Shown here piece by piece: positions 1-20,611 of a DNA stretch of 64,000 bases. The stretch lies in the NCBI RefSeq assembly GCF_003790525.1, contig NZ_CP033635.1. The stretch is one strand, 5' to 3'. The notes under the pieces are model-generated. The model was not told the origin of the DNA. It ran no database searches and worked only from the letters and a program-made list of their open reading frames with translations. The translations under genes and the position numbers were made by a program. The DNA comes from Escherichia coli. GTDB lineage: Bacteria; Pseudomonadota; Gammaproteobacteria; Enterobacterales; Enterobacteriaceae. How positions within the stretch are numbered: position 1 is the stretch's first letter; each line of letters begins with the position of its first letter.

Positions 1-1
1 A

Positions 2-373: not shown

Positions 374-389
374 CGCCTGTTATTAACCT

Positions 390-409: not shown

Positions 410-424
410 TAATGGAGAAAGAAG

Positions 425-862: not shown

Positions 863-872
863 GGTGATATCG

Positions 873-1208: not shown

Positions 1209-1226
1209 GCCTCGCGGATCAGACAA

Positions 1227-1246
1227 GGGGCTTCGGCCCCTTTATT
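1227..1246 (+). terminator. Intrinsic terminator inside the structural operon (GGGGC-UUCG-GCCCC followed by TTTATT)
   Basis: GC stem with UUCG tetraloop and T-rich tail read directly; placed after the head-proximal genes, analogous in position to the T7 T-phi terminator (established knowledge). Confidence 0.55.
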
Positions 1247-1258
1247 GCAGGAGTGTAT

Positions 1259-8180: not shown

Positions 8181-9979
8181 GTTACTTTGGCCTTAATCCA
8201 GTAAACCAGAATCAGCAGCTTGACGAAGCAGCATCAAATCCAGTTGGCTTTAACAGCGATGTTGGTTTTTTCGACAATGCTGTAGGAGCGGCATTGTCTG
8301 GTTTGTACTCCGGGCTGGTGGCAAAGCCTGATCAGTTGCTCTGGGCAGGGATGGATAAAATCGTATCCCCGATTGCTCAGTTTGTTAACGAAAACACCTC
8401 GCTCAATGACACTTCAGTTTCATACATTGCCGAGCAGAGAAAACTAGCAGAGCAGCAGGTTAAGCGGCTGACGCCTGATGCCGCGACAACCGGAACCGCC
8501 GGGCAGGTTCTTTATGGGTTGTTCGATATGGGCGGGCAGGCTGTTATCGGTACAACGCTCGGTGGTCCGGTCGGAGGTGCTGCGGCGGTAACTTCGCTAC
8601 AGGGTTTTTCTGAGTTTGAACGGCTGACAGCACAGGGTGTTGATTTCAGGACGGCGCAGGAAGCGGGATTAGTGCAGGGTATTACTGCTGGTGCCGGAAC
8701 ACTGATCCCTATGAGCCTCGGGTTACGTGCTGGTGGTGCGCTGGCGGAAGGTGTGGCGGCTCAGCTTGCGCGGACGGGTGAAAGTTCAGTGCGACGCGCC
8801 GCAGCAACAGCAGTACGTGCAACGCCAGATATTGCCTATGCCGCAGGTACAAATATTGCGTTCGGTATGGCACAGCGTGGGCTTACTGCAAAAACGCTTC
8901 GTGATGGTGGCTATAGCGAAATGGCTAACCAGTATGATGTGTTGGATCGACAGGCAATTGCTATTGATGCTGTTCTTGGGGTGGCGTTTGGTGGTGTCGG
9001 CAGATTTATTAACTCTCGCGGCGAGTCTACAAGCGCACCAAATTTTTCACCAGTTGATATCGATGCTGCACTGGCGGCGAATGCCGCTCATCATGCTGAA
9101 ATTGATATTGCTCCCGGTGTGCCGATCAACGTGCTTTCGCGTAATTCGCACATTCAGGCTCTGCGAAAAGCCATGTCTGATGTTAGCCAGGGGAGACCTG
9201 TAGACGTTGCCAGCATTGTTGAGTCTGCATCTTTCAGTGAAATTCCTGGGCGCAAGAGTCTGCTTTCTCAGGCAGTTAATGAGGCTCTGTCATCTGTAGA
9301 TGATGGAGTAACGGCGCGCGCTATAGAAAATCGGTTGCTTGAAGAACAGGCCGCGCAGCTTTTGCCGCGTGGCGATAGACAGGTTTACCAGTCTGAAATC
9401 GCTAATAGCCAACGAATTATTGAAAATCTCACTGAACAGCGCGCACAAATTCTTGCAGAAGAGCCAACCGGTAGCGGTAAAGCTTTGTCTCGTGCTCGAT
9501 CAGATAAACAGGCCAGACTTCGCGATATTGATCAACGAATCCGGCAGGCACAAGAACGCCTGGAGTTTTCCCGTAACGCGTTGGCTCCGCACGAGCCTGG
9601 CGGTCAGTTTTTTGAAGCTCGAGCAGAACTGGCACGACGACAGCAGGCAGAAAGTGAACTTAATGCTCAGGCTGTTTCATTCTATAAAACAGCAGAGGTC
9701 AGGACGCCAGACGAAGTAGCTCCTTTTGAGCCCGGTAAGATATTGCAACAGACAGAACAAAAAATGATGGCAGATCCGGCAGGAGATATTGATCTGCGTA
9801 TAGCTGAAGACTCGCTGCTTGAATCTCCGGACATGATAATCACCGTGCTGGATGATGATGGTAATCCACAATCGCGCAGTGCGCGTGAAGTACTGGATGA
9901 AGCGAACAGGGAAAGTGAGCAGGCAATACAGGATTCCAGCCTGTTTGATGTTGCTGTGGCGTGTTTCTTGAGAGGTTAA
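8177..9979 (+). CDS. Internal virion / ejection protein, 600 aa, Gly/Ala-rich
   Basis: ATGA overlap with upstream gene; gene order. Confidence 0.5.
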   Translation: MSYFGLNPVNQNQQLDEAASNPVGFNSDVGFFDNAVGAALSGLYSGLVAKPDQLLWAGMDKIVSPIAQFVNENTSLNDTSVSYIAEQRKLAEQQVKRLTPDAATTGTAGQVLYGLFDMGGQAVIGTTLGGPVGGAAAVTSLQGFSEFERLTAQGVDFRTAQEAGLVQGITAGAGTLIPMSLGLRAGGALAEGVAAQLARTGESSVRRAAATAVRATPDIAYAAGTNIAFGMAQRGLTAKTLRDGGYSEMANQYDVLDRQAIAIDAVLGVAFGGVGRFINSRGESTSAPNFSPVDIDAALAANAAHHAEIDIAPGVPINVLSRNSHIQALRKAMSDVSQGRPVDVASIVESASFSEIPGRKSLLSQAVNEALSSVDDGVTARAIENRLLEEQAAQLLPRGDRQVYQSEIANSQRIIENLTEQRAQILAEEPTGSGKALSRARSDKQARLRDIDQRIRQAQERLEFSRNALAPHEPGGQFFEARAELARRQQAESELNAQAVSFYKTAEVRTPDEVAPFEPGKILQQTEQKMMADPAGDIDLRIAEDSLLESPDMIITVLDDDGNPQSRSAREVLDEANRESEQAIQDSSLFDVAVACFLRG

Positions 9980-9984
9980 ATTAA

Positions 9985-12459
9985 ATGAGACAGGAATGTA
10001 TACAAGCGGTCCAGCAGGCGGCGCAGCGCACGTTAACGGCGCGAGAAATACAGAACATTGAAGACCGCATTTATCGAAATATGCGCTCCATTGCTCGTGA
10101 TGACCCGATGTCGTGGCGACAACTTTCCGAATCAGAACGGTTGTATCGTGCAGCACAATTGGCATCTGAAGAATTACAGCGAGAAGCGGCATTAAAGAAA
10201 CGTCGTGTGGCCCTCACTATAGCCGCACGTCAGAGATTGGATAAATTTATCAATAGCTATCAAGGGGCTGATGGGAAACTTGGCGCTCTTAACCGTACTA
10301 TTGCTTTTAATGCAGACGGTAAATCGAATTTCCTCTCTGTTGAATCCAGAACAAAAGCCACCCGTGATTATGCATTGAGTCAATTGCAGGAGGCATTCGA
10401 AGCAGTTGATCCTCGCTTTTTTGGTCTGTTTGAAGATGAAGCGGGCGTACGTGACCTGGTATATGAAATGCGGGGGCAAAATACTGGCAATGCTAAAGCA
10501 AGAAAAGGTGCTAAGGCGTGGAGAGAAGTTACAGAGCTGCTGCGCCGCCGGTTTAATGATGCTGGTGGGGACATTGGCTATCTCGAAAACTGGGGGATCC
10601 CTCAACATCATTCTATGGAAAAGGTTGGGGCGGTATCAAAGGATAAGTGGGTTAGCGATGTTATAGGTAAGCTGGATCGCAAATATTATACCCGAGCCGA
10701 TGGACAACTGATGAACGATGCCGAGTTGTCTGAATTTCTTGGAGAGGCTTATAACACGATCGCTACTGGTGGGCTGAATAAGCTTACTGATACCGGAATG
10801 CGAATTTCCGGCGCACGTGCTAACCGTGGTAATGCATCACGACAGATACATTTCAAAGATGCAGATTCCTATCTGCAATATCAGCAACTTTATGGCGATC
10901 GCTCTCTATGGGAAATCATGGTCGGTCACCTGGAAGGTATCAGTAAAGATATTGCGCTGGTGGAAACATATGGCCCAAACCCCGATCATGTTTTCCGCTC
11001 CCTTCTTGATCAGGTTAAGGCAGAAACGGCAACAGCTAACCCGAGTAAAACCGGTAGCGTCGAGCGTCTGGCGAACAAAACAGAGAACTTGTACAACTTT
11101 ATTTCCGGAAAAACACAGCCTGTAGCGAATCCGCACATCGCGCGATGGTCTGACAATATCCGCAACTGGCTGGTTGCCAGCAGACTCGGATCCGCGTTGC
11201 TGTCATCGTTCTCTGATCTTGGAACCATGTATCTGTCTGCGAAGGTTACCAACCTTCCAATGAACCAGTTATTTCGCAACCAGCTTGAAGCTATGGACCC
11301 AACGAACCGTACAGAACTTGCGCGGGCGCGCCGCGCTGGCCTGGCGATGGAATCTCTACTTGGCAGCGTTAACCGCTGGGCGATGGATAATATGGGGCCG
11401 TCTGTGTCTCGTTGGGCGGCAACGGCGGTAATGCGTGCCAGTGGGCTTACAGCATGGTCAGATGCGCACAAGCGCGCCTATGGCGTAACCATGATGGGAA
11501 GCCTGGGAGAAGTAGTGTCACGGACACCAGACCTTCGTAGCCTCGATGACTCTGATTTTCGTATCCTGAAAAGCAAAGGGATTACTGACACAGACTGGAG
11601 CGTATGGAAGCTGGCGCAACAGGAGGACTGGGGGAACGGTAATAATACGATGCTGACACCGGAAAGCATTATGCGTATCCCTGATTCAGCAGTTAAACAT
11701 CTTGGTGAGCCTGAACGCGTGAAATTTGAGGCAATGCGTAAACTGCTCGGTGCCGTAACTGAAGAAGTTGATATGGCTGTTATTACACCGGGCGCACGTG
11801 AACAGATGTTCGTAGGGTCTGGTCTTCAGCGTGGAACATGGAAAGGTGAATTAACGAGAAGTGTTTTCCTGTTTAAATCGTTCCCTATCTCGGTAGTTAT
11901 GCGTCACTGGCATAGAGCTATGGGGATGCCGTCTGCTGGTGGGCGTGCGGCATATATAGCAACGTTTTTAGCAAGCACAACCATGCTTGGTGCTCTTTCC
12001 ATGCAGATTACTGATCTTATTAATGGGAGAAATCCAAAAGAAATGACCGGTGACAACATGGTTAAATTCTGGATAAATGCATTTTTAAAAGGTGGTGGGG
12101 CAGGGTTGTATGGTGATTTTCTTTTCTCTGACCACACCAGGTACGGGAGCGGCGCACTAGCGTCGATGCTTGGCCCGGTAGCTGGTCTGGTTGATGACGT
12201 AGTGAAGATTGCTCAGGGCATACCGTTAAATGCTGTGGAAGGGAAGAATGAGCAGACTGGTGGTGATCTGGTTAAGCTTGGGAAAGGTTTGATGCCTGGT
12301 GCGAATCTCTGGTACTTGAAGGCGGCTCTCGATCACATGATCTTTAATCAGATGCAGGAGTATTTTTCACCAGGCTATTTGCGTAAAATGGAGCAACGTT
12401 CGAAGAAAGAGTTTAACCAGACATACTGGTGGCGACCTCAGGATGTCACTCCGCAATAA
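9985..12459 (+). CDS. Internal virion / ejection protein (gp16-like position), 824 aa
   Basis: Last large gene of the structural operon; AGAGG RBS upstream. Confidence 0.5.
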   Translation: MRQECIQAVQQAAQRTLTAREIQNIEDRIYRNMRSIARDDPMSWRQLSESERLYRAAQLASEELQREAALKKRRVALTIAARQRLDKFINSYQGADGKLGALNRTIAFNADGKSNFLSVESRTKATRDYALSQLQEAFEAVDPRFFGLFEDEAGVRDLVYEMRGQNTGNAKARKGAKAWREVTELLRRRFNDAGGDIGYLENWGIPQHHSMEKVGAVSKDKWVSDVIGKLDRKYYTRADGQLMNDAELSEFLGEAYNTIATGGLNKLTDTGMRISGARANRGNASRQIHFKDADSYLQYQQLYGDRSLWEIMVGHLEGISKDIALVETYGPNPDHVFRSLLDQVKAETATANPSKTGSVERLANKTENLYNFISGKTQPVANPHIARWSDNIRNWLVASRLGSALLSSFSDLGTMYLSAKVTNLPMNQLFRNQLEAMDPTNRTELARARRAGLAMESLLGSVNRWAMDNMGPSVSRWAATAVMRASGLTAWSDAHKRAYGVTMMGSLGEVVSRTPDLRSLDDSDFRILKSKGITDTDWSVWKLAQQEDWGNGNNTMLTPESIMRIPDSAVKHLGEPERVKFEAMRKLLGAVTEEVDMAVITPGAREQMFVGSGLQRGTWKGELTRSVFLFKSFPISVVMRHWHRAMGMPSAGGRAAYIATFLASTTMLGALSMQITDLINGRNPKEMTGDNMVKFWINAFLKGGGAGLYGDFLFSDHTRYGSGALASMLGPVAGLVDDVVKIAQGIPLNAVEGKNEQTGGDLVKLGKGLMPGANLWYLKAALDHMIFNQMQEYFSPGYLRKMEQRSKKEFNQTYWWRPQDVTPQ

Positions 12460-12468
12460 GGAACAACA

Positions 12469-12882
12469 ATGAAGGAATTATTGCTGTTATCGGTATTTTT
12501 GATATCCGCTTGCTCGACATCCTATGATGTTTATGACGGTGTTGATAAGGCATATTGCGACAAAGTTAAAATGGATTTTTCTCTTGCCAAGACGGCGAAG
12601 GATAGTTGTATTGATCACTACGTCAAGACTTATACCAAGCCAGCCTCATCGGCATCTGATATTGCTGAAGGTGCTGTGTTTGAGTGTAACAAGGTGATAT
12701 CCATCGCAGCGAGTTCTTCATACGATGCTGCTGTATGTGCAATGGCTGAAAGAAACGGCATGTCAGTGCAAAAAATTAATAGCATGATAAGCAGTAATGA
12801 CGAAGCCAAAATAAGAACTGATATCAGCTCGGTGAAAAAAGATGCCATGAACAGAGTTGTAAAATATCAGTCATCTTTATAA
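12469..12882 (+). CDS. Prophage lipoprotein (signal peptide with lipobox L-I-S-A-C), 137 aa, AT-rich gene
   Basis: N-terminus MKELLLLSVFLISAC read directly; AAGGA RBS; sits at the start of the accessory island. Confidence 0.65.
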   Translation: MKELLLLSVFLISACSTSYDVYDGVDKAYCDKVKMDFSLAKTAKDSCIDHYVKTYTKPASSASDIAEGAVFECNKVISIAASSSYDAAVCAMAERNGMSVQKINSMISSNDEAKIRTDISSVKKDAMNRVVKYQSSL

Positions 12883-12897
12883 GTCGTGACATGTCAC

Positions 12898-12922
12898 AGG
12901 CCGCTTTCGCGGCCTTGTTTTT
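12898..12922 (+). terminator. Intrinsic terminator of the structural operon / lipoprotein gene
   Basis: AGGCCGC-TTTC-GCGGCCT hairpin followed by TGTTTTT. Confidence 0.6.
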
Positions 12923-13082
12923 AACGAATGCCACCGCCACCCGGGCGGGAATCCGCAGAACGCCCACCGCAGCGGGAGCCGTCAGCAGCAGTGTCGCTGT
13001 CGTGCTGACAACGACCGGCAAAGGCCTGAGTTGAAGCTACCAGAGACAACAAAACGAACAGTGCAGCAAATGCTTTTTTCAT
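12921..13082 (-). CDS. Candidate small secreted peptide (53 aa, Sec signal MKKAFAALFVLLSLVASTQAFA, two Cys)
   Basis: Internal ATG of the 77-aa ORF; convincing signal peptide but weak RBS; possible TTGACG / TATAGA promoter just upstream. Confidence 0.3.
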   Translation of the reverse strand: MKKAFAALFVLLSLVASTQAFAGRCQHDSDTAADGSRCGGRSADSRPGGGGIR

Positions 13083-13154
13083 TGTGAAATTTCCATCTAT
13101 AAGCCACCTCAATGTGGCGTCAATGAGTGTAGCACTGACTTTTGTTTCGCCCAC

Positions 13155-13176
13155 AAAAAAGCCCGCAGCGCGGGCT
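13155..13176 (-). terminator. Intrinsic terminator of the cargo operon
   Basis: AGCCCGC-GCU-GCGGGCU hairpin followed by six U on the - strand; overlaps the stop codon at 13175. Confidence 0.6.
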
Positions 13177-13615
13177 ATTCTTCTTCATCATTAAAAAGCG
13201 GATTGTTGTTTCCATCTGATGAAAGGAAAGGTATGTGTTCTCTTGAAAATCCAACAATGACAATTTCATTATCATTTTTTGCATAATGAATGCATTCATT
13301 AGAATGCCTTCCGCCAGGGTTGAAATTTAAGTTAATGGTATAATTCTTAAATGTGTTTGGATACCATGTTGGCCCACAATGATAATGCCAATAATTCTCT
13401 TGCTCATAATTGTCTGAGCCGGGAATTTTATCATGGTTATCATCAACCCACGAGGGCTTGTTTTTTCCAACAAGCGCCCTTCCATTGGCAACATCCTCTA
13501 AAAAACTTTGTATGATTTTTATTTCATCATCAGTAAGGAAAGGTCCGTCTACAGCGAAAGGGGTGTTGCTTTCCCCATGTAGAAAACTATTAGATATTCT
13601 AATGTTAAACTTCAA
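13175..13615 (-). CDS. Hypothetical cargo protein, about 146 aa, low GC, Asn-rich, no recognised domain
   Basis: Probable TTG start at 13615 with AGGAG RBS 6 nt upstream, 20 nt after the stop of the 55-aa ORF; ORF track shows a longer frame from 13756 that overlaps the upstream gene. Confidence 0.5.
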   Translation of the reverse strand: MKFNIRISNSFLHGESNTPFAVDGPFLTDDEIKIIQSFLEDVANGRALVGKNKPSWVDDNHDKIPGSDNYEQENYWHYHCGPTWYPNTFKNYTINLNFNPGGRHSNECIHYAKNDNEIVIVGFSREHIPFLSSDGNNNPLFNDEEE

Positions 13616-13635
13616 GGAAAACTCCTGATGTGCTT

Positions 13636-13803
13636 CTATTTGGAGCGAAATGCCGCCTTGAAGTCGCTGAAAGATGTTCCTGTCTGGTAAACCATATCCT
13701 TGTCGCGCTCTTTGCTTGCGCGGCCAAGCATAACTTTTCCAATGACATCCCAGCATTGCTTGGCTTGTTCATTGTGCTGAGTACGATTTTTCAACGCTGT
13801 CAT
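13636..13803 (-). CDS. Small protein (55 aa), first gene of the cargo operon; possible regulator or antitoxin-like partner
   Basis: ATG with AGGAGG RBS 6 nt upstream, placed immediately downstream of promoter P_A; translated by hand. Confidence 0.5.
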   Translation of the reverse strand: MTALKNRTQHNEQAKQCWDVIGKVMLGRASKERDKDMVYQTGTSFSDFKAAFRSK

Positions 13804-13815
13804 ATCGCGCCTCCT

Positions 13816-13858
13816 TTACCTTTAAGGTAATAGTACGCTATTCACCCACAGTCTGCAA
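13816..13858 (-). promoter_or_regulatory. Promoter P_A (-35 TTGCAG at 13853-13858, 17-bp spacer, -10 TACTAT at 13830-13835) with operator copy A (TTACC-TTTAA-GGTAA, 13816..13830)
   Basis: Hexamers and the 15-bp palindrome read directly; the operator abuts the -10 and the RBS. Confidence 0.55.
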
Positions 13859-13867
13859 TCTGTACAG

Positions 13868-13894
13868 AATTATTTAAAGGCACATCCCTGTGCC
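13868..13894 (-). terminator. Terminator-like hairpin after the antirepressor-like gene (GGCACA-GGGA-TGTGCC then TTTAAATAATT)
   Basis: Hairpin read directly; T-rich but interrupted tail. Confidence 0.45.
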
Positions 13895-13902
13895 GCCGCC
13901 CG

Positions 13903-14589
13903 TCAGAAGAACCCAGCCTTGTCGTTGATGTACTCCGCGTGGGTCTGGATATCACGCAGGCATTTGCTCACACCAACAATGTAGCAGAACATGGTGGTCA
14001 GCTCCGCCGCCGCGCCCGATACGTCGTGCCCGTCTTCCTGTAACTGGTTCAGCAGATTCATCAGCAGTGAGTTCTCCGTCAGGCCGAGAACACCAGACGG
14101 AGAATGAATCAGGCTGCGGTAGCCGGGCTTCAGTGGGGCACTGTAGGTTTTGTTCTCTATCTTCATTGCCTGCATCACTGCTGATGCTGTGGCGTTGGCT
14201 ACCTGGTCGGCAACTATCTTTATGCGTTCTTCCTGCGGGAGCGAGTTTTTAATGTAACTTCCGGTGCGGCGGATCTGAGGAAGAACCTCACCTGTAACCC
14301 ATTTACGAAAGCGGTAGGGGATAGTGCCTGGTGTCACTGCGTCGCGGCAGCGGAGGATCAGTGTGTAGAGGCCTGACTCGTTGATAATATTGGTTTCACC
14401 TTGACGGCCTAAGTTAAATTTAGCCCTTTCATCATCATCAAGAGATTTTATTGACATAGTGGGGTTTGTCAGTTGAAGAGCTTTAATAACGTCTTTGGCA
14501 ACAAACCAAGGATTTCCATCAATAACAATGGCTCGAATGGTGGCTTCTGATTCAAAATGAAAAACAGATGGGGTTACGTTAGCAGTCAT
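13903..14589 (-). CDS. Antirepressor-like protein with N-terminal BRO-N / AntA-type domain, 228 aa
   Basis: Motifs FHFE...IR..IDG.PWFVAKDV and ESGLY.LI read in the translation (BRO-N family, from memory); start set at ATG 14589 with AAGGTGA RBS rather than ORF-track 14742, which has no RBS and a Gly/Cys-rich non-protein-like extension. Confidence 0.8.
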   Translation of the reverse strand: MTANVTPSVFHFESEATIRAIVIDGNPWFVAKDVIKALQLTNPTMSIKSLDDDERAKFNLGRQGETNIINESGLYTLILRCRDAVTPGTIPYRFRKWVTGEVLPQIRRTGSYIKNSLPQEERIKIVADQVANATASAVMQAMKIENKTYSAPLKPGYRSLIHSPSGVLGLTENSLLMNLLNQLQEDGHDVSGAAAELTTMFCYIVGVSKCLRDIQTHAEYINDKAGFF

Positions 14590-14742
14590 AGTGATCACCT
14601 TTGTAGTTAGGTTAATCACCACTACCGACGCCAATCGGTTGGTGGTGAACTGTGCAGGGTTGGCGTAACCGGCTACAAAGGACCCGGCGCACCTTTCGGT
14701 GCCCCCACACAGCCCACCATAGAATAGGTGCGCTTTACACAT

Positions 14743-14761
14743 AAAAAAACCGCTTATGCGG
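14743..14761 (-). terminator. Short intrinsic terminator or attenuator in the leader of the antirepressor-like gene (CCGC-AUAA-GCGG followed by seven U)
   Basis: Read on the - strand; stem is only 4-5 bp, so call is tentative. Confidence 0.4.
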
Positions 14762-14855
14762 CATATGTGCCTCTGTAGTAACCCGGGACGCCAATCCCGG
14801 CACTGGATTTTGCCAGTGCCCGATTACTATGGCACAAGAGGAGTGCGATGTAAAT

Positions 14856-14898
14856 TTACCGAAAAGGTAATAATAAACACTCTACTTGGTAATTGCAA
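14856..14898 (-). promoter_or_regulatory. Promoter P_B (-35 TTGCAA at 14893-14898, 17-bp spacer, -10 TATTAT at 14870-14875) with operator copy B (TTACC-GAAAA-GGTAA, 14856..14870)
   Basis: Near-consensus sigma70 hexamers with exact 17-bp spacing; palindrome overlaps the -10 and start site. Confidence 0.6.
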
Positions 14899-14901
14899 AC
14901 C

Positions 14902-15159
14902 TTATCTGGTTTGTTTTCGTAATTGTTCGGCACAATAGTCGAGATGTGTTTGCAGATCCCGCATAGACATCTGTGAGCTGGTGACGTAGTTAATCAGTGC
15001 AGTCAGTTCGGCAAGTGGGCCATCGACATTAAATCCATCCTTATCGAGATCCCGGAGTAATTTCATCAAGTGCGATCCCTCCACCAGTGACCTGACGCCT
15101 CCCGGCGTGTGAATCCTTTCGGTAAATCCGTCTTCCAGTGGATAGTGATACTGCTGCAT
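14902..15159 (-). CDS. Small protein (85 aa) paralogous to the C-terminal domain of the adjacent antirepressor-like protein; candidate SOS-controlled small antirepressor
   Basis: By-eye alignment with the last ~70 aa of the 228-aa protein shows about 40 percent identity; ATG 15159 with GGAG RBS; LexA box directly upstream. Confidence 0.6.
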   Translation of the reverse strand: MQQYHYPLEDGFTERIHTPGGVRSLVEGSHLMKLLRDLDKDGFNVDGPLAELTALINYVTSSQMSMRDLQTHLDYCAEQLRKQTR

Positions 15160-15178
15160 CTTATCTTCTCCATGCAAT

Positions 15179-15198
15179 AACTGTATATTTATACAGTA
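15179..15198. promoter_or_regulatory. LexA (SOS) box AACTGTATATTTATACAGTA
   Basis: 18 of 20 positions match the consensus TACTGTATATATATACAGTA including both CTGT and ACAG arms; located immediately upstream of the 85-aa gene. Confidence 0.65.
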
Positions 15199-15235
15199 TC
15201 AAATAATTTGTTTGCTATCCAGCACGTTTTGCAAA

Positions 15236-15250
15236 TTACCCGAAAGGTAA
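15236..15250. promoter_or_regulatory. Operator copy C (TTACC-CGAAA-GGTAA) in the divergent region between the 85-aa gene and the tailspike gene, next to a TTGCAA hexamer (15229-15234)
   Basis: Third copy of the 15-bp palindrome; promoter partner hexamers not clearly assignable. Confidence 0.45.
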
Positions 15251-15354
15251 TATCTATTCGTATTTACAGTCTTTCTATCCATATGTGGTTTTTCAGGTAA
15301 TAGAATAACCAGATATGCGGCGCAACGGGTGCTGCGACTATCTGGAGATTTAAC

Positions 15355-17544
15355 ATGACGGTCTCAACCGAAGTTGACCACAACGAATACACCGGTAACG
15401 GCGTTACGACATCATTTCCGTATACCTTCCGTATTTTCAAAAAAACCGACCTGGTTGTTCAGGTGTCTGACCTGAACGGGAACGTAACAGAATTGGTTCT
15501 GGATACCGGTTATAAGGTAACTGGAGCGGGCACTTATAGTGGCGGTGAAGTGGTTCTCCAGTCGCCGCTTGCTGCTGGCTGGCGAATTACGATAGAGCGT
15601 GTGCTTGATGTGGTGCAGGAGACTGATCTTCGCAATCAGGGAAAATTTTTCCCCGAAGTTCATGAAGATGCATTTGACTACCTGACGATGCTGATCCAGC
15701 GATGTTTTGGGTGGTTCAGACGTGCATTGATGAAACCATCTTTGCTTGCAAAATATTACGATGCAAAGCAAAACAAAATTTCTAACCTTGCAGATCCATC
15801 ATTTGAGCAGGACGCTGTAAATAATCGCTCAATGCGTAATTATGTCGATGCTGCAATCGCCGGGGTTGTTGGTGGTTTTGGTTGGTTTATACCGTCAGGA
15901 AGCGGGGCAAGACAACGAACATTTCAAAGCAAAATGAGGGATATAATTTCTCCTTGTGATTACGAAGATAATATTTTTATGATTAAGGAGTTGATATCCA
16001 AAGGCAAAAATGCCGCTGTTTTTAACTCATATTATACTTTTGTTATTACTGTTGGCGAATGGGGTGATTTCCCTACACTCAAAGATGCAATCATTGCAGC
16101 CCAGTCAATGAGACCTATGTGGGATGGTGGTAATGCTTTCTGCGAAATAAGAATTAAGACCGGGCATATTATCAACTATCAAATTGAATTCAGTTCAGGT
16201 GTTGATTTGTCTTGGATTAAAATAACATCAGAAGACTCAGTGGTTTTCTCTGACACTCGTTTGTTTACTAAAATCGTTAGAACGTATTACGAATACAAGT
16301 ATTTATTTTACATTTGCGATGCAGCAAAAAGTCCTGTATTTGCTATTCAGATCGAAGAAAATAGAGATGATAGCGATGTTTGTGCATTTATTGTAACTCA
16401 AAAAGCTGAACTTAATTTCTATCCGTATTCAGGTGCTCGAAAGTTCTACGTTGGAATTCATGGTAGTTTTGGTGCAAAAATTAGTGCATATCATACCGGA
16501 TGTGCTCCTGATGAGGAAAGTGTTGCTGCATATATGCCAGAAGGGTATTACGTATGTGATTTTTCTTATAGCAGATACTCTTCCCTGCAACTGGTAAATA
16601 ATGTCAAGGCATCAATGCCTGTAAGCAAGTTTGAACGGTGCACAGAGAGTACGGTTGCGTCAGTTAATTGTATTTATAATGTTAAAGCAGATTTTCAGGG
16701 GTCAAGTGCAAGCTATTGTTATATAGGATGGAATGTAAGAGATGGTTCAAATGTTAATATACGCGACCATAAAACTATACATTGCTCATATCGTGGATTA
16801 ACCTGCATTCATACAGCATATGTTGATGCAAGACGACATGACGTTGAAGAAAGTGATGCAGAAACAAGTGGTAAAGTCCTTGAACCAAATATTGAAAAAG
16901 GTTTTTATGGATGTGCACTTGGTGTGCGTATTGATGGTGCGGGTTGCGTTGATGTTGCTGGTAATGATATGCGCAATTGTGGAACAGCCGTTAATGCAGA
17001 CACTGGTGCTGTTATTTCAGGAAAGGCTGTAGATATCTCAGGGGCTGAGCTGGGATTTGATTGCCATGCAGGAGCATCTGTTAATTTTCCAAGGCTATGG
17101 GGTACAGATATAAAAAAATTAATGCACCTCCAAGATGGTGTAAGGTTTAACTCTAATATTTGTCATGTATTTGGTGCAAATCCCACAAAAGATATTAGAT
17201 GGATTGATGTAGAGAGATCTGAAGCTTCTTTTATGAATGCAACGCTGGATGCAGATTCAGGATTTATTGCCGACTGTGGTAGTAGGATAACCATTGAAGG
17301 AAGTAAAGTTAAAAACCAAACAATAAGAAGTTTTTTTGGATCATATGTGGCTATAAATAATACTGTTGCTGACAGAACTTATTCAGATATAGCCGATGTT
17401 CCGCAGTTGACTATTAGTGGAGGATCTTTTATTTCTGCTACAGGATATTCTAATTCTGACTCCAGCCCTCTGAGGTTGAGCACAACACGAAATACACTTG
17501 GCGTTGGAGGAGCCATATTTTCAACCAATGGGGAAGTTTCATGA
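15355..17544 (+). CDS. Tailspike / tail fiber protein, 729 aa: conserved N-terminal virion-attachment domain plus divergent C-terminal receptor-binding part
   Basis: N-terminus carries the YTGNGVTT.F.Y.F pattern typical of podovirus tail fiber or tailspike adapters (from memory); C-terminal two thirds are AT-rich and Cys-rich; GGAG RBS 7 nt upstream. Confidence 0.7.
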   Translation: MTVSTEVDHNEYTGNGVTTSFPYTFRIFKKTDLVVQVSDLNGNVTELVLDTGYKVTGAGTYSGGEVVLQSPLAAGWRITIERVLDVVQETDLRNQGKFFPEVHEDAFDYLTMLIQRCFGWFRRALMKPSLLAKYYDAKQNKISNLADPSFEQDAVNNRSMRNYVDAAIAGVVGGFGWFIPSGSGARQRTFQSKMRDIISPCDYEDNIFMIKELISKGKNAAVFNSYYTFVITVGEWGDFPTLKDAIIAAQSMRPMWDGGNAFCEIRIKTGHIINYQIEFSSGVDLSWIKITSEDSVVFSDTRLFTKIVRTYYEYKYLFYICDAAKSPVFAIQIEENRDDSDVCAFIVTQKAELNFYPYSGARKFYVGIHGSFGAKISAYHTGCAPDEESVAAYMPEGYYVCDFSYSRYSSLQLVNNVKASMPVSKFERCTESTVASVNCIYNVKADFQGSSASYCYIGWNVRDGSNVNIRDHKTIHCSYRGLTCIHTAYVDARRHDVEESDAETSGKVLEPNIEKGFYGCALGVRIDGAGCVDVAGNDMRNCGTAVNADTGAVISGKAVDISGAELGFDCHAGASVNFPRLWGTDIKKLMHLQDGVRFNSNICHVFGANPTKDIRWIDVERSEASFMNATLDADSGFIADCGSRITIEGSKVKNQTIRSFFGSYVAINNTVADRTYSDIADVPQLTISGGSFISATGYSNSDSSPLRLSTTRNTLGVGGAIFSTNGEVS

Positions 17545-17837
17545 TTAAGAGCATTGATGTCACTCCATTTCTTCACTCGCTTTGCGCTTTTGCGGCTCAG
17601 GTACTGGTTGGTATTTTTACCGGAAACTGGGCTTACGGTGCGATAGCCGGTTGTACGTTCTTCATTGCGCGTGAACACACCCAGGCAGAATATCGCTGGA
17701 TAGAAAAGTTTGGGAAAGGGAAACGTATCAACATGCCGTGGTGGGGAGGTTTTGATCCACGCGTGTGGGATGTGGGAAGTCTGTTGGATTTTGCTGTTCC
17801 TGTTGTTTTTTGTTTTTGTGTTTATTTCTCTATTTGA
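17541..17837 (+). CDS. Small membrane protein (98 aa, two hydrophobic helices)
   Basis: ATGA overlap with the tailspike stop; hydrophobic stretches in translation. Confidence 0.5.
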   Translation: MIKSIDVTPFLHSLCAFAAQVLVGIFTGNWAYGAIAGCTFFIAREHTQAEYRWIEKFGKGKRINMPWWGGFDPRVWDVGSLLDFAVPVVFCFCVYFSI

Positions 17838-18039
17838 CTGCTACCGCGCCATTAAATGGTGCGGTATTCAACCTGCTCTTCACTGTTTGTTTCTTCAGAG
17901 TCATGTAAAAGGTGAGCTTTATTCTCGGCATGAAAAACAGGGAATTGACGATGTTAAAGTAACAAAAAACCATAAATGGTTTATTATGCGTAATGCTTTA
18001 CTGTTCAGGAGGTTGTTATGCATATAAACGGTGGAAAAC

Positions 18040-18444
18040 ATGTCAGCTCAACTAACCAGTGAAACTTTAAATCAGTGGCTTAGCATGAGTTCTCTGGCGG
18101 CGGTGATAGCAGGAGTTCCTCCTGAGGTTGCTTTGGGTGCTTTGGCTGGAGCGGTAATTTTTGTTACCTCTGCAGTAGAGTACCCCATCCGTCGCCGGGT
18201 GCTCCTGTCGATGCTCAGCTTTCTTTGCGGCCTTCTCTTTTACAAACCAGCAGCATCAATTCTTATCGGCATAGCCAGCCTGATCCCTACCATCACGCAG
18301 GACTCTTTTGAAAAAGGGATTGTTTTCTCTGCAGGCGCATTCGTGTCAGCAATTGTCGCTGTGCGTATTGGTATATGGCTCTATCACCGTTCCGATAATC
18401 CACGCGAGTTAATTCCGGGGAGAAAAGACGATGGTAACGCATGA
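18040..18444 (+). CDS. Membrane protein, holin or antiholin candidate (in-frame alternative start GTG 18031)
   Basis: Several predicted transmembrane stretches; two in-frame starts three codons apart (GTG-GAA-AAC-ATG). Confidence 0.45.
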   Translation: MSAQLTSETLNQWLSMSSLAAVIAGVPPEVALGALAGAVIFVTSAVEYPIRRRVLLSMLSFLCGLLFYKPAASILIGIASLIPTITQDSFEKGIVFSAGAFVSAIVAVRIGIWLYHRSDNPRELIPGRKDDGNA

Positions 18445-18739
18445 GTTTTTTTTGCTTATCACCAATGCAGTTATTTGCACTGGCATAGCAATTCGCGTTG
18501 TCACATTCCGGCGTAACGGCTCTCAACACCGAAGGTGGGGAGGATGGCTTGCTTATTTCCTGATTGTTGCTGCGGCCAGTATTCCTGTTCGTGTCGCCTA
18601 TGCAATCTGGTTACGTACGCCAATGGCTGTGGATTTATCTGAGGTCATTATCAACGCTGTCATGCTAGCTGCGGTTATTAAAACGCGCGGTAACGTCGTT
18701 CAAATTTTCAAAGTATCGAGGTCTAAACATGGAGATTAA
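18431..18739 (+). CDS. Holin candidate (102 aa, 2-3 transmembrane helices) immediately upstream of the endolysin
   Basis: Position and hydrophobicity pattern; overlaps neighbours at both ends. Confidence 0.5.
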
Positions 18740-19358
18740 ACAATTCCAGCGAGCTGCTGGTATCAGCGAGGCACTGGCCGCACGCTGGTTCTCGCATATA
18801 ACTTCTGCGATGAAAGAGTTTGGTATCAGCAAACCAGAAGATCAGGCTATGTTTATTGCTCAGGTCGGGCATGAGTCTGGAGGCTTCACCCGGTTGCAGG
18901 AGAATTTCAACTACAGCGTCAGCGGACTGGCTAACTTTGTTCGGGCTGGGCGTCTCACTCAGGGACAGGCCAACGCATTGGGGCGACGTGCAGGCGAACC
19001 ACCATTGCCACTTGAGCGCCAGAGAGCGATTGCCAATCTGGTGTACAGCAAACGCATGGGGAACAATGCCCCTGGTGATGGCTGGAACTACCGTGGGCGC
19101 GGGCTTATCCAGGTTACCGGTTTGAATAACTATCGTGACTGTGGAAACGGTCTTAAGGTTGACCTGCTGGAGAGTCCTGAACTGCTGGCGCAGGACGAAT
19201 ACGCGGCTCGTAGCGCGGCGTGGTTCTTTGCCAGCAAAGGATGCATGAAGTATACCGGCGATATTGCACGTGTAACTCTGATTATCAATGGTGGCCGGAA
19301 CGGCATCGACGACCGGCGCGCGCGATACATCAATGCCAGTAAGGTGCTGGCGGTATGA
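18729..19358 (+). CDS. Endolysin, glycoside hydrolase family 19 (chitinase-like) type
   Basis: Motifs [18 protein letters not shown] and NYRD read in the translation, recalled as GH19-type phage lysozyme signatures; position between holin and Rz. Confidence 0.8.
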
Positions 19359-19837
19359 TCTGGGCATTCGTAAAAGCATACTGGAAACAGTTGGTTATCA
19401 TGGCGATGCTTGCTGTTCTGGTCATATCAGGAGTTGTAGCCTGGAATGCACACGGTAGTCGTCAGTACGACGCCGGGTATGCGCAGGCGGAAGAAGACCG
19501 CAAAGACGAAGAAGACAAAGTTCGTCAGTACTACGAACAGGAGAAAGTGACCAATGAACGTGAAGCGCAGCAAAGAATCGACCAGGCGCGCAATGATGCT
19601 CTTGATGCTGCCGCTCGCGCTGGCAGGTTGCAGCAACAACTCTTTGCCATCCGTGAGCAGCTCAGGCAGTATAACGCCATTGTCGGCGCTGGGACGTCAG
19701 CCGCAGACACCGGAGTTTTGCTTGCCGACGTGCTCAGCAAATCTCTCGAGAGAAACAGACAACTGGCAGAGTATGCTGACCGGGCAGCCGAAGCCGGAAG
19801 AGTCTGCGAAAAACAGTACGACACCCTGACCAGATAG
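19355..19837 (+). CDS. Rz-like i-spanin (N-terminal transmembrane helix, coiled-coil periplasmic domain)
   Basis: ATGA overlap with endolysin stop; typical Rz architecture. Confidence 0.7.
19554..19829 (+). CDS. Rz1-like o-spanin lipoprotein, fully embedded in the Rz gene in the +1 frame
   Basis: Signal peptide ending in lipobox LAGC, Pro-rich mature part, embedded arrangement as in lambda Rz/Rz1 (established knowledge). Confidence 0.65.
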   Translation: MNVKRSKESTRRAMMLLMLPLALAGCSNNSLPSVSSSGSITPLSALGRQPQTPEFCLPTCSANLSRETDNWQSMLTGQPKPEESAKNSTTP

Positions 19838-19992
19838 CATGGTATTTTTCATGGCACTGATTTCCGGTGACGGTATATAAAACGGTACGGGAAAAGTTGA
19901 GCTTTGGAAAAATGTTATCACTCAATTGGTTATGGTGTCCGTGAATAATTGAGTGGGAATGATTTTGATCCCTGCACTATGAATGAACAAAA

Positions 19993-20018
19993 CCCTCTGT
20001 TACTACAGAGGGTTTTTT
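19993..20018. terminator. Bidirectional intrinsic terminator (CCCTCTGT-TACT-ACAGAGGG flanked by A-run and T-run) at the prophage / yfgI junction
   Basis: Perfect 8-bp stem with six T after it on + and four on -. Confidence 0.6.
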
Positions 20019-20056
20019 ATACTCACGAATCATAGGCTTGAAGTTACTGACATCGC

Positions 20057-20596
20057 TTAGTTAAACCAGCTGTCCGATTTGTTCTCTTCTGCTTTGCCCA
20101 CGCTTTTCATCAGATCGCGACCGCCTTCAGTCATATTTCTGTTTGCGTCAGCTTCAGATTGCACCACATCGGTTTGCGCAGCTTTGTGCTTCAGTTCCTG
20201 ATCGATAAATTCGTTTTCTCGCTTAACGCGGGCTTCTTCTTTCGCCAGCGCCAGTTTTTGTTTCTGAATCTCTAAGCTGCGTAGCTCATCTTCATAACTT
20301 TGATCGCGTTTTTTGTCCGCAGTGGCTTCGGCGTCCAGTTTATCCTGACGAGCTTTCTTATTCGCTGCTGCCGTTGCCGCTCTTTTATTAGCCGCGGCCT
20401 GGGCGTTTGCGCGACGTTGCTTCTCTTGCTGGATTTCCCTGTTGCGCTCCGCGACCCATTCGTCATGCTGCCTTTGCTCTTCATTTTTACCTTGCTGTTC
20501 CGCTTCTGCGACAGCAGAGAGTTGATCCTGCAATGATGAGGCGATAGCCGGATAGCTTAAGGAGGCTAAGATGGCGCAAAGAAAAACTTTCTTCAT
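20057..20596 (-). CDS. yfgI: YfgI, periplasmic protein (179 aa)
   Basis: Signal peptide plus Lys/Glu/Ala-rich repeats; matches recalled K-12 protein and gene order. Confidence 0.85.
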   Translation of the reverse strand: MKKVFLCAILASLSYPAIASSLQDQLSAVAEAEQQGKNEEQRQHDEWVAERNREIQQEKQRRANAQAAANKRAATAAANKKARQDKLDAEATADKKRDQSYEDELRSLEIQKQKLALAKEEARVKRENEFIDQELKHKAAQTDVVQSEADANRNMTEGGRDLMKSVGKAEENKSDSWFN

Positions 20597-20611
20597 GACT
20601 CCTCCTGATTA

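What the first reader, a model, noticed from the sequence alone, without database searches (positions are those of the whole stretch)
13816..15250. Three copies of a 15-bp palindromic operator TTACC-N5-GGTAA, two embedded in near-consensus sigma70 promoters
Seen: TTACC-TTTAA-GGTAA (13816..13830), TTACC-GAAAA-GGTAA (14856..14870) and TTACC-CGAAA-GGTAA (15236..15250), each extended to GGTAATA. Copies A and B overlap the -10 of - strand promoters with TTGCAG/TTGCAA at -35, exact 17-bp spacers and TACTAT/TATTAT at -10. Copy C lies beside another TTGCAA hexamer in the divergent region before the tailspike gene. Inference: one dimeric repressor co-regulates the cargo operon, the antirepressor-like gene and the region in front of the 85-aa gene.
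Basis: seen in the sequence. Interest (0 to 1): 0.75.

Follow-up and report, generated by a model that had tools for sequence, protein, structure and literature searches.

The report
Prophage master-repressor operators, three copies
The three palindromes are real and are almost certainly binding sites for the main repressor of an epsilon15/phiV10-type E. coli prophage, a motif already annotated in phage epsilon15, so this is a correct but largely ordinary observation.

Summary
There are three exact TTACC-N5-GGTAA sites, at 13816, 14856 and 15236, against 0.01 expected by chance. All lie in the phage part of the window (1-19964); the 44 kb of host DNA has none.

The motif is not local. It is the most over-represented palindrome in every Uetakevirus genome examined: phiV10, epsilon15, SPC32H, Tyrion, Klebsiella BUCT711 and an E. 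coli prophage identical to the window over 3 kb. Each genome carries 8-11 exact copies at syntenic positions. These include three sites between the repressor gene and the cro-like gene.

The epsilon15 RefSeq record already annotates these sites as 'protein_bind: repressor'. One of them is the site syntenic with copy C.

- **The binder:** most likely the SPC32H-type Rep (PDB 5D50), whose gene lies outside the window. The local 55-aa protein is unlikely, because its gene is missing from phages that carry the motif.
- **Copy A:** covers the start site of a promoter for a variable cargo operon.
- **Copy B:** covers the start site of the upstream promoter of an isrK-C4-antirepressor operon. This mirrors P1's C1-controlled operator Oc4/Op51.
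- **Copy C:** lies between the LexA-controlled small antirepressor gene and the tailspike promoter.

Verdict: real and functional, a new member of a known kind, of modest interest.

The parts
13816..13830 (.). Operator copy A (TTACCTTTAAGGTAA). It covers about -7 to +8 of the minus-strand cargo promoter.
   Evidence: Exact match. The same promoter and operator occur in phiv142-3, WWCOL-236 and TL-2011b. An operator directly after a different -10 stands in front of different cargo in ZX5 and EC.W1-9.
13830..13858 (-). Putative cargo promoter: TTGCAG (13858-13853), 17 nt, TACTAT (13835-13830).
   Evidence: Read from the sequence. It matches 7 of 12 consensus positions and is not listed by the scan. 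It is conserved with the operator in relatives.
13175..13803 (-). Cargo operon: 55-aa gene (13803-13636) and 146-aa gene (TTG start at 13615, ending at 13175). Function unknown.
   Evidence: ORFs. RefSeq CDSs in the identical prophage. PHROG 8607 and 5954 are families of unknown function. No Pfam, NCBIfam, PADLOC or PDB hits.
13160..13176 (.). Bidirectional terminator-like hairpin that ends the cargo operon.
   Evidence: Terminator scan, both strands.
13903..14589 (-). Large antirepressor: Bro-N domain plus a C-terminal SPC32H-Ant-like domain (aa 147-223).
   Evidence: PHROG anti-repressor families. Residues 147-223 match PDB 5D50_E at E=1.1e-13. It is 82% identical to ZX5 ORF4, whose overexpression favours the lytic cycle.
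14638..14724 (-). C4 antisense RNA in the antirepressor leader. Its loop CCUUUGUAG (14681-14673) pairs with CUACAAAGG (14606-14598) over the antirepressor ribosome-binding site.
   Evidence: Rfam RF01695, 79.5 bits. 9-nt complementarity.
14743..14819 (-). isrK-type sRNA with an intrinsic terminator (14762-14749). Its 5' half overlaps a c4-a1b1-like C4 target.
   Evidence: Rfam RF01394, 74.7 bits. RF03163, 44.1 bits, at 14780-14832, just under the gathering score. Terminator.
14826..14854 (-). Promoter P2 for isrK/C4: TTTACA (14854-14849), 17 nt, TG-CATAGT (14831-26). Its predicted start is 14819, the Rfam 5' end of isrK.
   Evidence: Promoter scan. The Stx-phage isrK promoter has the same geometry of 6 nt between the -10 and the RNA 5' end.
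14856..14870 (.). Operator copy B (TTACCGAAAAGGTAA). It covers -7 to +8 of upstream promoter P1 and -37 to -51 of P2.
   Evidence: Exact match. Conserved in phiV10, phiv142-3, Tyrion, EC.W1-9, TL-2011b and ZX5, each with a different spacer sequence.
14870..14898 (-). Promoter P1: TTGCAA, 17 nt, TATTAT. An extra GGTAA half-site lies at 14888-14892.
   Evidence: Promoter scan, 9 of 12. The -35 and -10 are retained in relatives although the sequence drifts.
14902..15159 (-). Small antirepressor Ant (85 aa), SPC32H type.
   Evidence: PDB 5D50_E, E=1.4e-46. Present in 35 phage records, all from enterobacterial hosts.
15181..15196 (.). LexA box CTGT-N8-ACAG (20-mer TACTGTATAAATATACAGTT on the minus strand). 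It overlaps the predicted -10 and start site of the small ant promoter.
   Evidence: Read from the sequence and conserved in all relatives. LexA control of SPC32H ant is from my memory of Kim & Ryu 2013, a paper not held here.
15236..15250 (.). Operator copy C (TTACCCGAAAGGTAA) in the divergent region between small ant and the tailspike gene.
   Evidence: Exact match. The syntenic site in epsilon15 (19895-19911) is annotated 'protein_bind: repressor'. Present in SPC32H, Tyrion, 65FD, PAS61, BUCT711 and ZX5.
15277..15317 (+). Conserved tailspike promoter-like module: box ATCCATATGTGGTT (15277-15290), GGTAAT half-site with TAGAAT (15296-15306), and an inverted partner AACCAGATATG (15307-15317).
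   Evidence: The same box-plus--10 module follows a Rep operator upstream of the head, tailspike and lysis genes in phiV10, epsilon15, SPC32H and Tyrion.
15355..17544 (+). Tailspike gene, with an epsilon15/phiV10-type N-terminus.
   Evidence: ORF. Annotation of homologues.

Best explanation
The three palindromes are operators for the prophage's master repressor Rep. Their consensus is ATTACC-NN-W-NN-GGTAAT.

**Rep.** It belongs to the SPC32H Rep / epsilon15 gp38 / phiV10 gp40 family. It has helix-turn-helix domains and is reported to act as a tetramer. Its gene lies outside the window, about 13 kb before window position 1 in prophage order.

**State in the lysogen (inferred).**
- O_A: Rep occludes the start site of the promoter of a variable cargo operon (55-aa and 146-aa genes).
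- O_B: Rep occludes the start site of the upstream promoter P1 of the isrK-C4-antirepressor operon.
- The downstream promoter P2 can keep making the C4 and isrK RNAs, which hold the large antirepressor off post-transcriptionally.
- O_C: Rep sits in the divergent region, at about -57 from the small ant start and about -70 from the tailspike promoter-like module.

**Induction (inferred).**
1. DNA damage removes LexA from the box over the small ant promoter.
2. The 85-aa Ant is made and strips Rep from DNA.
3. All Rep-controlled promoters open.
4. These include P1, which drives the second antirepressor (a Bro-N domain fused to an Ant-like domain). This gives positive feedback.
5. The cargo operon and the late restart promoter for the tailspike also open.

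**Shown here:** the motif, its conservation and genome-wide distribution, the homologies, and the RNA elements.

**Inferred:** physical binding of Rep, the direction of regulation at each site, and the feedback loop.
For: - **Non-random and phage-specific.** 3 exact copies against 0.01 expected, and none in 44 kb of host DNA.
- **Phylogenetic footprint.** In at least 10 related phages the half-sites TTACC/GGTAA are invariant while the 5-bp spacer and flanks differ. In the pooled logo of 48 sites, the central position is A or T in 94 of 96 symmetrised entries, and the flanking A/T in 70 of 96.
- **Dominant palindrome.** TTACC with a 5-bp gap is by far the commonest 5-N-5 palindrome in phiV10, epsilon15 and BUCT711: 8-11 copies against at most 2 for any other at that spacing.
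- **Operator-type distribution.** Each complete genome has 8-11 exact copies plus 4-8 one-mismatch sites, at syntenic positions. These include 3 sites between the rep and cro-like genes and 2-3 downstream of rep.
- **Prior annotation.** The epsilon15 RefSeq record labels seven of these sites 'protein_bind: repressor, lysogeny', including the one syntenic with copy C.
- **Rep travels with the motif.** A Rep homologue is present in every complete genome carrying the motif. The WWCOL-236 Rep is 99.5% identical to phiV10's, 78% to Tyrion's and 43% to those of epsilon15 and SPC32H.
- **The identical prophage encodes Rep.** The prophage that is 100% identical to window 12400-15400 encodes a Rep matching PDB 5D50_A at E=3.5e-42.
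- **Ant homologies.** The 85-aa protein matches SPC32H Ant, 5D50_E, at E=1.4e-46. The large antirepressor's C-terminus carries the same domain.
- **Experimental support in a close relative.** In ZX5, which has the same three-site layout, Rep overexpression cut endolysin and holin transcripts by more than 99.9%. Overexpression of the Bro-N antirepressor favoured the lytic cycle (PMC9782041).
- **Geometry.** The half-site centres are 10 bp apart, which suits a pair of helix-turn-helix domains in successive major grooves.
- **Precedent for copy B.** P1's record annotates a C1 operator (Oc4/Op51) on the upstream of two tandem promoters in front of c4-icd-ant.
Against: - No binding experiment is available to me. 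The SPC32H and epsilon15 primary papers are not in the held library. The claim that Rep binds this very sequence therefore rests on an annotation, on distribution, and on my memory of those papers.
- The window does not contain its own rep gene, and its exact source genome is not in the complete-genome collection. Rep presence is inferred from near-identical prophages.
- Copy C and the other late-region sites lie about 57-70 bp upstream of the predicted start sites. That position is not typical for simple occlusion, so their mode of action is uncertain.
- I found no heteroimmune relative with a different motif, so repressor-operator covariation could not be tested.
- Promoters A and P1 are only consensus-level predictions.
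Confidence: 0.85

Rival explanations
1. The sites are bound by the locally encoded 55-aa protein (13636-13803). It would autoregulate its own operon and co-regulate the neighbouring antirepressor genes, like Arc/Mnt in P22 immI or an antitoxin in a toxin-antitoxin operon.
For: Copy A lies 12 bp upstream of the 55-aa start codon and overlaps its promoter. Small proteins encoded next to ant genes regulate them in P22 (my own knowledge). TL-2011b carries a YafO-family toxin annotation in the equivalent slot.
Against: - The 55-aa gene occurs only in the window, WWCOL-236 and phiv142-3.
- phiV10, epsilon15, Tyrion and SPC32H lack it, yet carry 8-11 exact sites each, including B- and C-type sites.
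- It has no Pfam, NCBIfam or PADLOC hit and belongs to a PHROG of unknown function.
- The cargo behind copy A is swapped in ZX5, EC.W1-9 and TL-2011b while the operator stays.
Confidence: 0.03
2. The principal ligand is another core phage regulator rather than Rep. Candidates are the Cro-like protein encoded divergently from rep, or the regulator encoded just before the terminase genes (epsilon15 gp49 / phiV10 gp55). At the late-region sites, including copy C, it would act as an activator from about -60 to -70.
For: - Sites upstream of the head, tailspike and lysis genes sit at fixed distances from a conserved promoter-like module: 37 bp for tailspike and lysis, 47 bp for head, about one helical turn apart. 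That spacing is typical of upstream activator sites.
- In lambdoid switches Cro shares operators with the repressor (my own knowledge).
Against: - Copies A and B cover transcription start sites, which are repressor positions.
- Triple sites between rep and cro and the epsilon15 annotation point to the repressor.
- Rep overexpression silences lysis genes in ZX5.
- Cro sharing the sites would be additional to Rep binding, not an alternative to it.
Confidence: 0.1
3. The repeats are chance palindromes or remnants of a duplicated promoter cassette, without a shared ligand.
For: Copies A and B share a similar promoter layout, which could reflect duplication.
Against: - 0.01 copies expected by chance.
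- Sequence outside the half-sites is not conserved between copies.
- The half-sites are invariant across phages of four host genera, while the DNA around them is only about 78% identical to the window.
Confidence: 0.01

Closest known systems
Repressor-binding sites of Salmonella phage epsilon15 (17-mers ATTACC-N5-GGTAAT annotated 'protein_bind: repressor' in NC_004775) and the Rep/Ant switch of phage SPC32H (PDB 5D50)
   Same: - Identical half-sites, spacing and flanking A/T.
- Copy C is syntenic with the annotated epsilon15 site 19895-19911.
- The small Ant matches 5D50_E at E=1.4e-46 and is about 87% identical to SPC32H Ant by tblastn.
- The associated Rep is homologous to 5D50_A.
- A LexA box sits over the small ant promoter.
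   Different: - epsilon15 and SPC32H lack the large Bro-N antirepressor operon and the cargo operon, so copies A and B have no counterpart there.
- The epsilon15 record leaves several sites unannotated, such as the three between rep and cro.
- The E. coli-type Rep is only 43% identical to the Salmonella one.
Phage P1 immI region: C1 operator Oc4 (Op51) on the upstream of two tandem promoters (P51a/P51b), then the a1/b1 targets, C4 RNA, the a2/b2 targets, icd and ant
   Same: - The order is the same: prophage-repressor operator on the upstream promoter, a second downstream promoter, an a1b1-like target, C4 RNA, a C4 target over the ribosome-binding site, then the antirepressor.
- The master repressor also has many dispersed operators in the genome.
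   Different: - P1's operator is an asymmetric 17-mer for C1, whereas here it is a palindrome for an unrelated helix-turn-helix repressor.
- There is no icd gene.
- An isrK-type sRNA with its own terminator is present.
- The antirepressor is a fusion of Bro-N and an SPC32H-Ant domain.
Gifsy-1 isrK-orf45-anrP module and the isrK-C4-ant modules of Stx phages
   Same: isrK and C4 RNAs lie upstream of an antirepressor gene. The isrK promoter geometry is identical.
   Different: In the Stx phage examined, the module has only the isrK promoter and no palindromic operator upstream. The Rep-controlled P1 with copy B is an addition seen in the Uetakevirus version.
P22 immI (Arc and Mnt operators controlling Pant)
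   Same: An antirepressor gene next to the tailspike gene, under its own operator control.
   Different: No Arc/Mnt-type ribbon-helix-helix regulator is detectable beside the sites. The operator sequence is unrelated and is shared with the main immunity region.

Membership tests
Uetakevirus (epsilon15/SPC32H-type) Rep operators | A 15-17 bp palindrome with invariant TTACC/GGTAA half-sites, a 5-bp spacer with A or T at its centre, and flanking A/T | tested here: met
   All three copies fit. Their central bases are T, A and A. Logo built from 48 sites in five genomes.
Uetakevirus (epsilon15/SPC32H-type) Rep operators | Synteny with a site annotated as repressor-binding in epsilon15 | tested here: met
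   Copy C corresponds to epsilon15 19895-19911, between gp19 (Ant) and the tail fibre gene. Copies A and B have no epsilon15 counterpart because those genes are absent there.
Uetakevirus (epsilon15/SPC32H-type) Rep operators | The same motif occurs in the rep-cro intergenic region of the same phage, and a Rep homologue is encoded | tested here: inconclusive
   The window stops short of the immunity region. The condition is met in the prophage that is 100% identical over 12400-15400 (WWCOL-236) and in phiV10, Tyrion, epsilon15, SPC32H and BUCT711.
Uetakevirus (epsilon15/SPC32H-type) Rep operators | Physical binding by Rep | not testable with these tools
   Needs EMSA, footprinting or ChIP. The primary SPC32H papers are not held.
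SPC32H-type Rep/Ant lytic switch | A small (~86 aa) antirepressor homologous to SPC32H Ant | tested here: met
   5D50_E, E=1.4e-46, residues 2-84.
SPC32H-type Rep/Ant lytic switch | A LexA box overlapping the ant promoter | tested here: met
   CTGT-N8-ACAG at 15181-15196, with 18 of 20 matches to TACTGTATATATATACAGTA. It is conserved in all relatives. LexA binding itself was not tested.
P1/P7 immI-type antirepressor operon | A C4 antisense RNA in the leader, with a loop complementary to the ribosome-binding site of the downstream gene | tested here: met
   RF01695, 79.5 bits. The 9-nt pairing covers the ant Shine-Dalgarno sequence.
P1/P7 immI-type antirepressor operon | A master-repressor operator on the upstream of two tandem promoters | tested here: inconclusive
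   The layout matches the P1 annotation. P1 and P2 here are consensus predictions only.
P1/P7 immI-type antirepressor operon | An icd gene translationally coupled to ant, and a C1-type asymmetric operator | tested here: not met
   There is no ORF between C4 and ant, and the operator is palindromic. The region therefore works like immI but is not a member of that family.
P22 immI Arc/Mnt control | An adjacent small ribbon-helix-helix repressor whose presence tracks the operator | tested here: not met
   The 55-aa protein has no Pfam hit and is absent from genomes that have the motif.
Type II toxin-antitoxin autoregulatory operator | A recognisable antitoxin/toxin pair downstream of the palindrome | tested here: not met
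   No Pfam, NCBIfam, PADLOC or PDB hit for the 55-aa or 146-aa proteins.
Mycobacteriophage L5-type stoperators | Asymmetric sites oriented with the direction of transcription, dispersed through the genome | tested here: not met
   The sites are dispersed but are perfect palindromes, so they have no orientation.

The most novel reading that the evidence does not exclude
The Rep operators may be part of a two-layer commitment circuit that has not been described.
- The LexA-gated small Ant fires first.
- Loss of Rep from copy B then unlocks a second antirepressor, which is a Bro-N domain fused to the same Ant fold. That second antirepressor is additionally braked by the C4 and isrK RNAs.
- Together these would give a positive-feedback, P1-immI-like amplifier grafted onto an SPC32H-type switch.

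In parallel, every late transcription unit (head, tailspike, lysis) carries a Rep operator at a helically phased distance from a second conserved palindrome (AACCA-N4-TGGTT). This suggests that Rep gates late promoters directly, together with an unidentified second factor, and that copy A defines a Rep-silenced slot for exchangeable cargo genes expressed only on induction or infection.
Probability: 0.3. Interest if true: 0.5.

Novelty: new member of a known kind. Interest (0 to 1): 0.3.

Why it matters
The finding gives a simple sequence rule (ATTACC-N5-GGTAAT) for which genes of phiV10/epsilon15-type prophages are silenced by the master repressor. These prophages are widespread in E. coli: matches to this 3-kb region occur in 1029 of 5426 complete genomes.

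The rule implies three things here:
- The accessory cargo genes behind copy A are probably induction- or infection-specific rather than lysogen-expressed.
- These phages carry two antirepressors with the same Rep-binding fold under different controls: LexA for one, and Rep plus antisense RNA for the other.
- The P1-style immI logic has been re-used with a different repressor.

None of this overturns current understanding. It extends a characterised switch (SPC32H Rep/Ant) to extra targets.

Tried and rejected
1. **Local regulator hypotheses (Arc/Mnt-like or antitoxin).** Rejected on gene distribution and the lack of any domain hit.
2. **Covariation test with a heteroimmune relative.** I fetched the most distant phage carrying a small Ant homologue, Klebsiella BUCT711 (64% Ant identity). 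It has the same TTACC-N5-GGTAA motif. No alternative specificity was found, so the test could not be done.
3. **Does the isrK-C4-ant module carry the resident repressor's operator in other phage types?** In Stx phage phi296 there is only the isrK promoter and no palindrome. This generalisation is not supported.
4. **Finding the window's own genome to read its immunity region.** The best complete genome is 100% identical over 12400-15400 only. Over 13000-21000 the best is 98.5%, in three aligned pieces.
5. **Reading the primary papers.** The epsilon15 genome paper, the SPC32H J Virol 2013 and PNAS 2016 papers, and the P1 genome paper are not held. I used database annotations and a second-hand description instead.
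6. **A plus-strand sigma-70 promoter built on the TTGCAA beside copy C.** The would-be -10 is not conserved in Tyrion, epsilon15 or 65FD. Rejected.
7. **Near-matches with 1-2 mismatches in the window.** Uninformative: they exceed the shuffle expectation even though many lie in host DNA.
Full report
**1. The observation**

- TTACCTTTAAGGTAA at 13816-13830
- TTACCGAAAAGGTAA at 14856-14870
- TTACCCGAAAGGTAA at 15236-15250

They are the only exact TTACC-N5-GGTAA matches in the 64-kb window. Dinucleotide-preserving shuffles give 0.01 per window, and none reached three.

They are moderate rather than near-consensus:
- Promoter A (TTGCAG/TACTAT) matches 7 of 12 positions and was not picked up by the promoter scan.
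- Promoter B (TTGCAA/TATTAT) matches 9 of 12.

The palindromes overlap the -10 hexamers by one base and mainly cover the predicted start sites, about -7 to +8.

Matches with one or two mismatches are not informative, because they exceed the shuffle expectation even though many lie in host DNA.

**2. What the region is**

The window starts inside the structural genes of an epsilon15/phiV10-type podovirus prophage (genus Uetakevirus). It is integrated at guaA/yfgI. The attachment core ATTGAGTGGGAATGATT is at 19948-19964, and host DNA follows. All three sites therefore lie in phage DNA, and the 44 kb of host DNA has none.

Between the last internal-virion gene (9985-12459) and the tailspike gene (15355-17544) lies a block transcribed on the minus strand. 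In order of transcription it contains:
- **A small antirepressor gene, 85 aa (15159-14902).** It is homologous to SPC32H Ant, PDB 5D50 chain E, E=1.4e-46. A near-perfect LexA box precedes it at 15181-15196.
- **An operon for a large antirepressor (14589-13903).** It has a Bro-N domain, and its C-terminal residues 147-223 are again homologous to SPC32H Ant (E=1.1e-13). Its 270-nt leader encodes an isrK-type sRNA with a terminator (14819-14743) and a C4 antisense RNA (14724-14638). The C4 loop CCUUUGUAG is complementary to CUACAAAGG over the antirepressor's ribosome-binding site.
- **A two-gene cargo operon (55 aa and 146 aa) of unknown function.** It ends at a bidirectional terminator.

**3. 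The motif is prophage-wide and genus-wide**

All eight related loci fetched first contain the motif. Aligned, the half-sites are invariant while the 5-bp spacer differs in nearly every copy and the flanks drift. This is the signature of a symmetric protein-binding site.

Whole genomes show 8-11 exact copies plus 4-8 one-mismatch sites each. This holds in phiV10, epsilon15, SPC32H, Tyrion, the Klebsiella phage BUCT711, and the E. coli WWCOL-236 prophage that is 100% identical to window 12400-15400.

The copies sit at the same map positions:
- three between the repressor gene and the divergent cro-like gene;
- two or three just downstream of the repressor gene, at the head of the early-left operon;
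- one after the cro terminator;
- two after the replication genes;
- two at the terminase gene;
- one each in front of the head genes, the tailspike gene and the lysis genes;
- one beside the integrase gene.

A de novo count of all 5-N-5 palindromes puts TTACC with a 5-bp gap far ahead of any other. The pooled consensus is ATTACC-NN-W-NN-GGTAAT. In SPC32H's rep-cro region these are the only repeated or palindromic elements.

**4. Who binds**

The epsilon15 RefSeq record annotates seven of these 17-mers as 'protein_bind: repressor; lysogeny'. One of them is 19895-19911, between gp19 (the small Ant) and the tail-fibre gene, which is the syntenic equivalent of copy C.

A Rep homologue is encoded in every complete genome that carries the motif. 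The Rep of the near-identical prophage matches the SPC32H repressor crystal structure chain at E=3.5e-42, and the N-terminal region is well conserved in that alignment.

SPC32H Rep is described as binding palindromic sites as a tetramer and as being disassembled by a tetrameric Ant. I take this second-hand from PMC9638917. The primary papers, Kim & Ryu 2013 and Kim et al. 2016, are not held, and beyond that I know them only from memory.

In the close relative ZX5, which has the same three-site layout, Rep overexpression abolished endolysin and holin transcription. Overexpression of the Bro-N antirepressor, which is 82% identical to the one here, favoured the lytic cycle (PMC9782041).

Its gene is absent from phiV10, epsilon15, Tyrion and SPC32H, and it has no detectable DNA-binding domain.

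**5. How each copy probably works (inference)**

*Copy A.* It covers the start site of the cargo promoter. In TL-2011b the same promoter and operator drive different genes. In ZX5 and EC.W1-9 a different promoter, again with the operator directly after its -10, drives yet other genes. Copy A therefore looks like a Rep-silenced slot for exchangeable cargo. That cargo would be expressed on induction or infection rather than in the lysogen.

*Copy B.* It covers the start site of an upstream promoter P1. Directly downstream lies a second promoter P2: TTTACA, 17 nt, TG-CATAGT. Its predicted start coincides with the Rfam 5' end of isrK. It has the same geometry as the isrK promoter of a Stx phage, which lacks any operator.

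This layout parallels the annotated P1 immI region. There, the C1 operator Oc4/Op51 sits on the upstream promoter P51a, followed by P51b, the a1/b1 targets, C4, the a2/b2 targets and ant. The likely logic is as follows. In the lysogen P2 supplies C4 and isrK and keeps the large antirepressor off. When Rep is removed, P1 adds transcription and the second antirepressor reinforces Rep inactivation.

*Copy C.* It lies about 57 bp upstream of the predicted small-ant start and about 70 bp upstream of a conserved tailspike promoter-like module. Its mode of action is the least certain.

**6. An extra regularity seen on the way**

A second palindrome of the form AACCA-N4-TGGTT (perfect copies: AACCATATATGGTT in phiV10, AACCATAAATGGTT at window 17968) recurs in these genomes. 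phiV10 has 9 sites with at most one mismatch, against 1.06 expected.

In the window it occurs at three places:
- 14898-14911, abutting the -35 of P1;
- 15277-15290, in the tailspike promoter module, with an inverted partner at 15307-15317;
- 17968-17981, before the holin gene.

In relatives it sits in front of the head, tailspike and lysis genes and after the cro terminator. The Rep operator lies 37 bp upstream of this box at the tailspike and lysis genes and 47 bp upstream at the head genes, one helical turn apart. This suggests a phased interplay with an unidentified second factor. I did not resolve it.

**7. Comparison with known systems and novelty**

The motif itself is already annotated for epsilon15, and the Rep/Ant switch has been solved structurally for SPC32H. 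The three sites are therefore new instances of a known operator class. Copy C has a direct annotated counterpart. Copies A and B do not, because epsilon15 and SPC32H lack those genes.

The region works like P1 immI but is not a member of that family: it has no icd gene and a different type of operator and repressor. It is neither Arc/Mnt-like nor a toxin-antitoxin operator.

I rate it a new member of a known kind, with interest 0.3. Two readings remain open and have moderate interest: a two-antirepressor feedback circuit, and a Rep-plus-second-box architecture of the late promoters.

**8. Limits**

- No binding data were available.
- The window lacks its own rep gene.
- The promoters are predictions.
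- No heteroimmune relative was available for a covariation test.

Noticed in passing
window 14898-14911, 15277-15290 (inverted partner 15307-15317), 17968-17981; phiV10 L009 3305, 20539, 20918, 24736, 33132: A second conserved palindrome, AACCA-N4-TGGTT, recurs next to Rep operators. It lies in front of the head, tailspike and lysis genes, at the -35 of the antirepressor promoter P1, and after the cro terminator. phiV10 has 9 sites against 1.06 expected. The Rep operator lies 37 or 47 bp upstream of it. The ligand is unknown, possibly a late activator.
   Followed up: partly
window 14638-14724 and 14743-14819 (minus strand); targets at 14598-14606 and 14780-14832: The large antirepressor's leader carries a C4 antisense RNA (79.5 bits) and an isrK-type sRNA with a terminator (74.7 bits). 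The C4 loop pairs with 9 nt over the antirepressor's ribosome-binding site. A c4-a1b1-like target overlaps isrK (44.1 bits, just under the gathering score).
   Followed up: yes
window 14826-14854 (minus strand): A second promoter (TTTACA, 17 nt, TG-CATAGT) lies immediately downstream of copy B. Its predicted start is 14819, the isrK 5' end. The Stx-phage isrK promoter has the same geometry.
   Followed up: yes
window 15181-15196 and 14902-15159: A near-consensus LexA box lies over the promoter of the 85-aa gene. That gene is a close homologue of the structurally solved SPC32H antirepressor (5D50_E), so SOS induction here probably works by antirepression, not by repressor cleavage.
   Followed up: yes
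window 13903-14589, residues 147-223 of the product: The Bro-N antirepressor carries a C-terminal domain 41% identical to the small antirepressor. The prophage therefore encodes the same Rep-binding fold twice, under different controls.
   Followed up: yes
window 13175-13803; L001 2794-3493; L016 155-956; L008 2781-3582: The genes behind copy A differ between otherwise near-identical phages: 55 aa and 146 aa here, a YafO-family toxin annotation in TL-2011b, and other hypothetical proteins in ZX5 and EC.W1-9. The operator is kept in all of them. This looks like a Rep-controlled exchangeable cargo slot. The 146-aa protein has no hit in Pfam, NCBIfam, PADLOC or the PDB.
   Followed up: partly
L009, L012, L013, L014, L015 (whole genomes): The operator half-sites are identical in Uetakeviruses of E. 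coli, Salmonella, Enterobacter and Klebsiella, although the WWCOL-236 Rep is only 43% identical overall to those of epsilon15 and SPC32H. The genus may be broadly homoimmune at the level of DNA recognition. No variant specificity was found.
   Followed up: partly
window 19948-19964: The attR core ATTGAGTGGGAATGATT marks the prophage end. yfgI-type host genes follow, so only positions 1-19964 of the window are phage DNA and the immunity region lies upstream of the window.
   Followed up: yes
window, whole: Matches to TTACC-N5-GGTAA with up to 2 mismatches number 45 against 18 expected from shuffles, and many lie in host DNA. The cause is unexplained, probably a compositional or codon effect.
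   Followed up: no
window 12469-12882 and 12921-13082: A 137-aa lipoprotein-like gene lies on the plus strand (PHROG 8691, function unknown) and a 53-aa membrane-anchored ORF on the minus strand. They sit between the virion genes and the cargo operon and are flanked by terminators. They are probably morons outside Rep-operator control.
   Followed up: no
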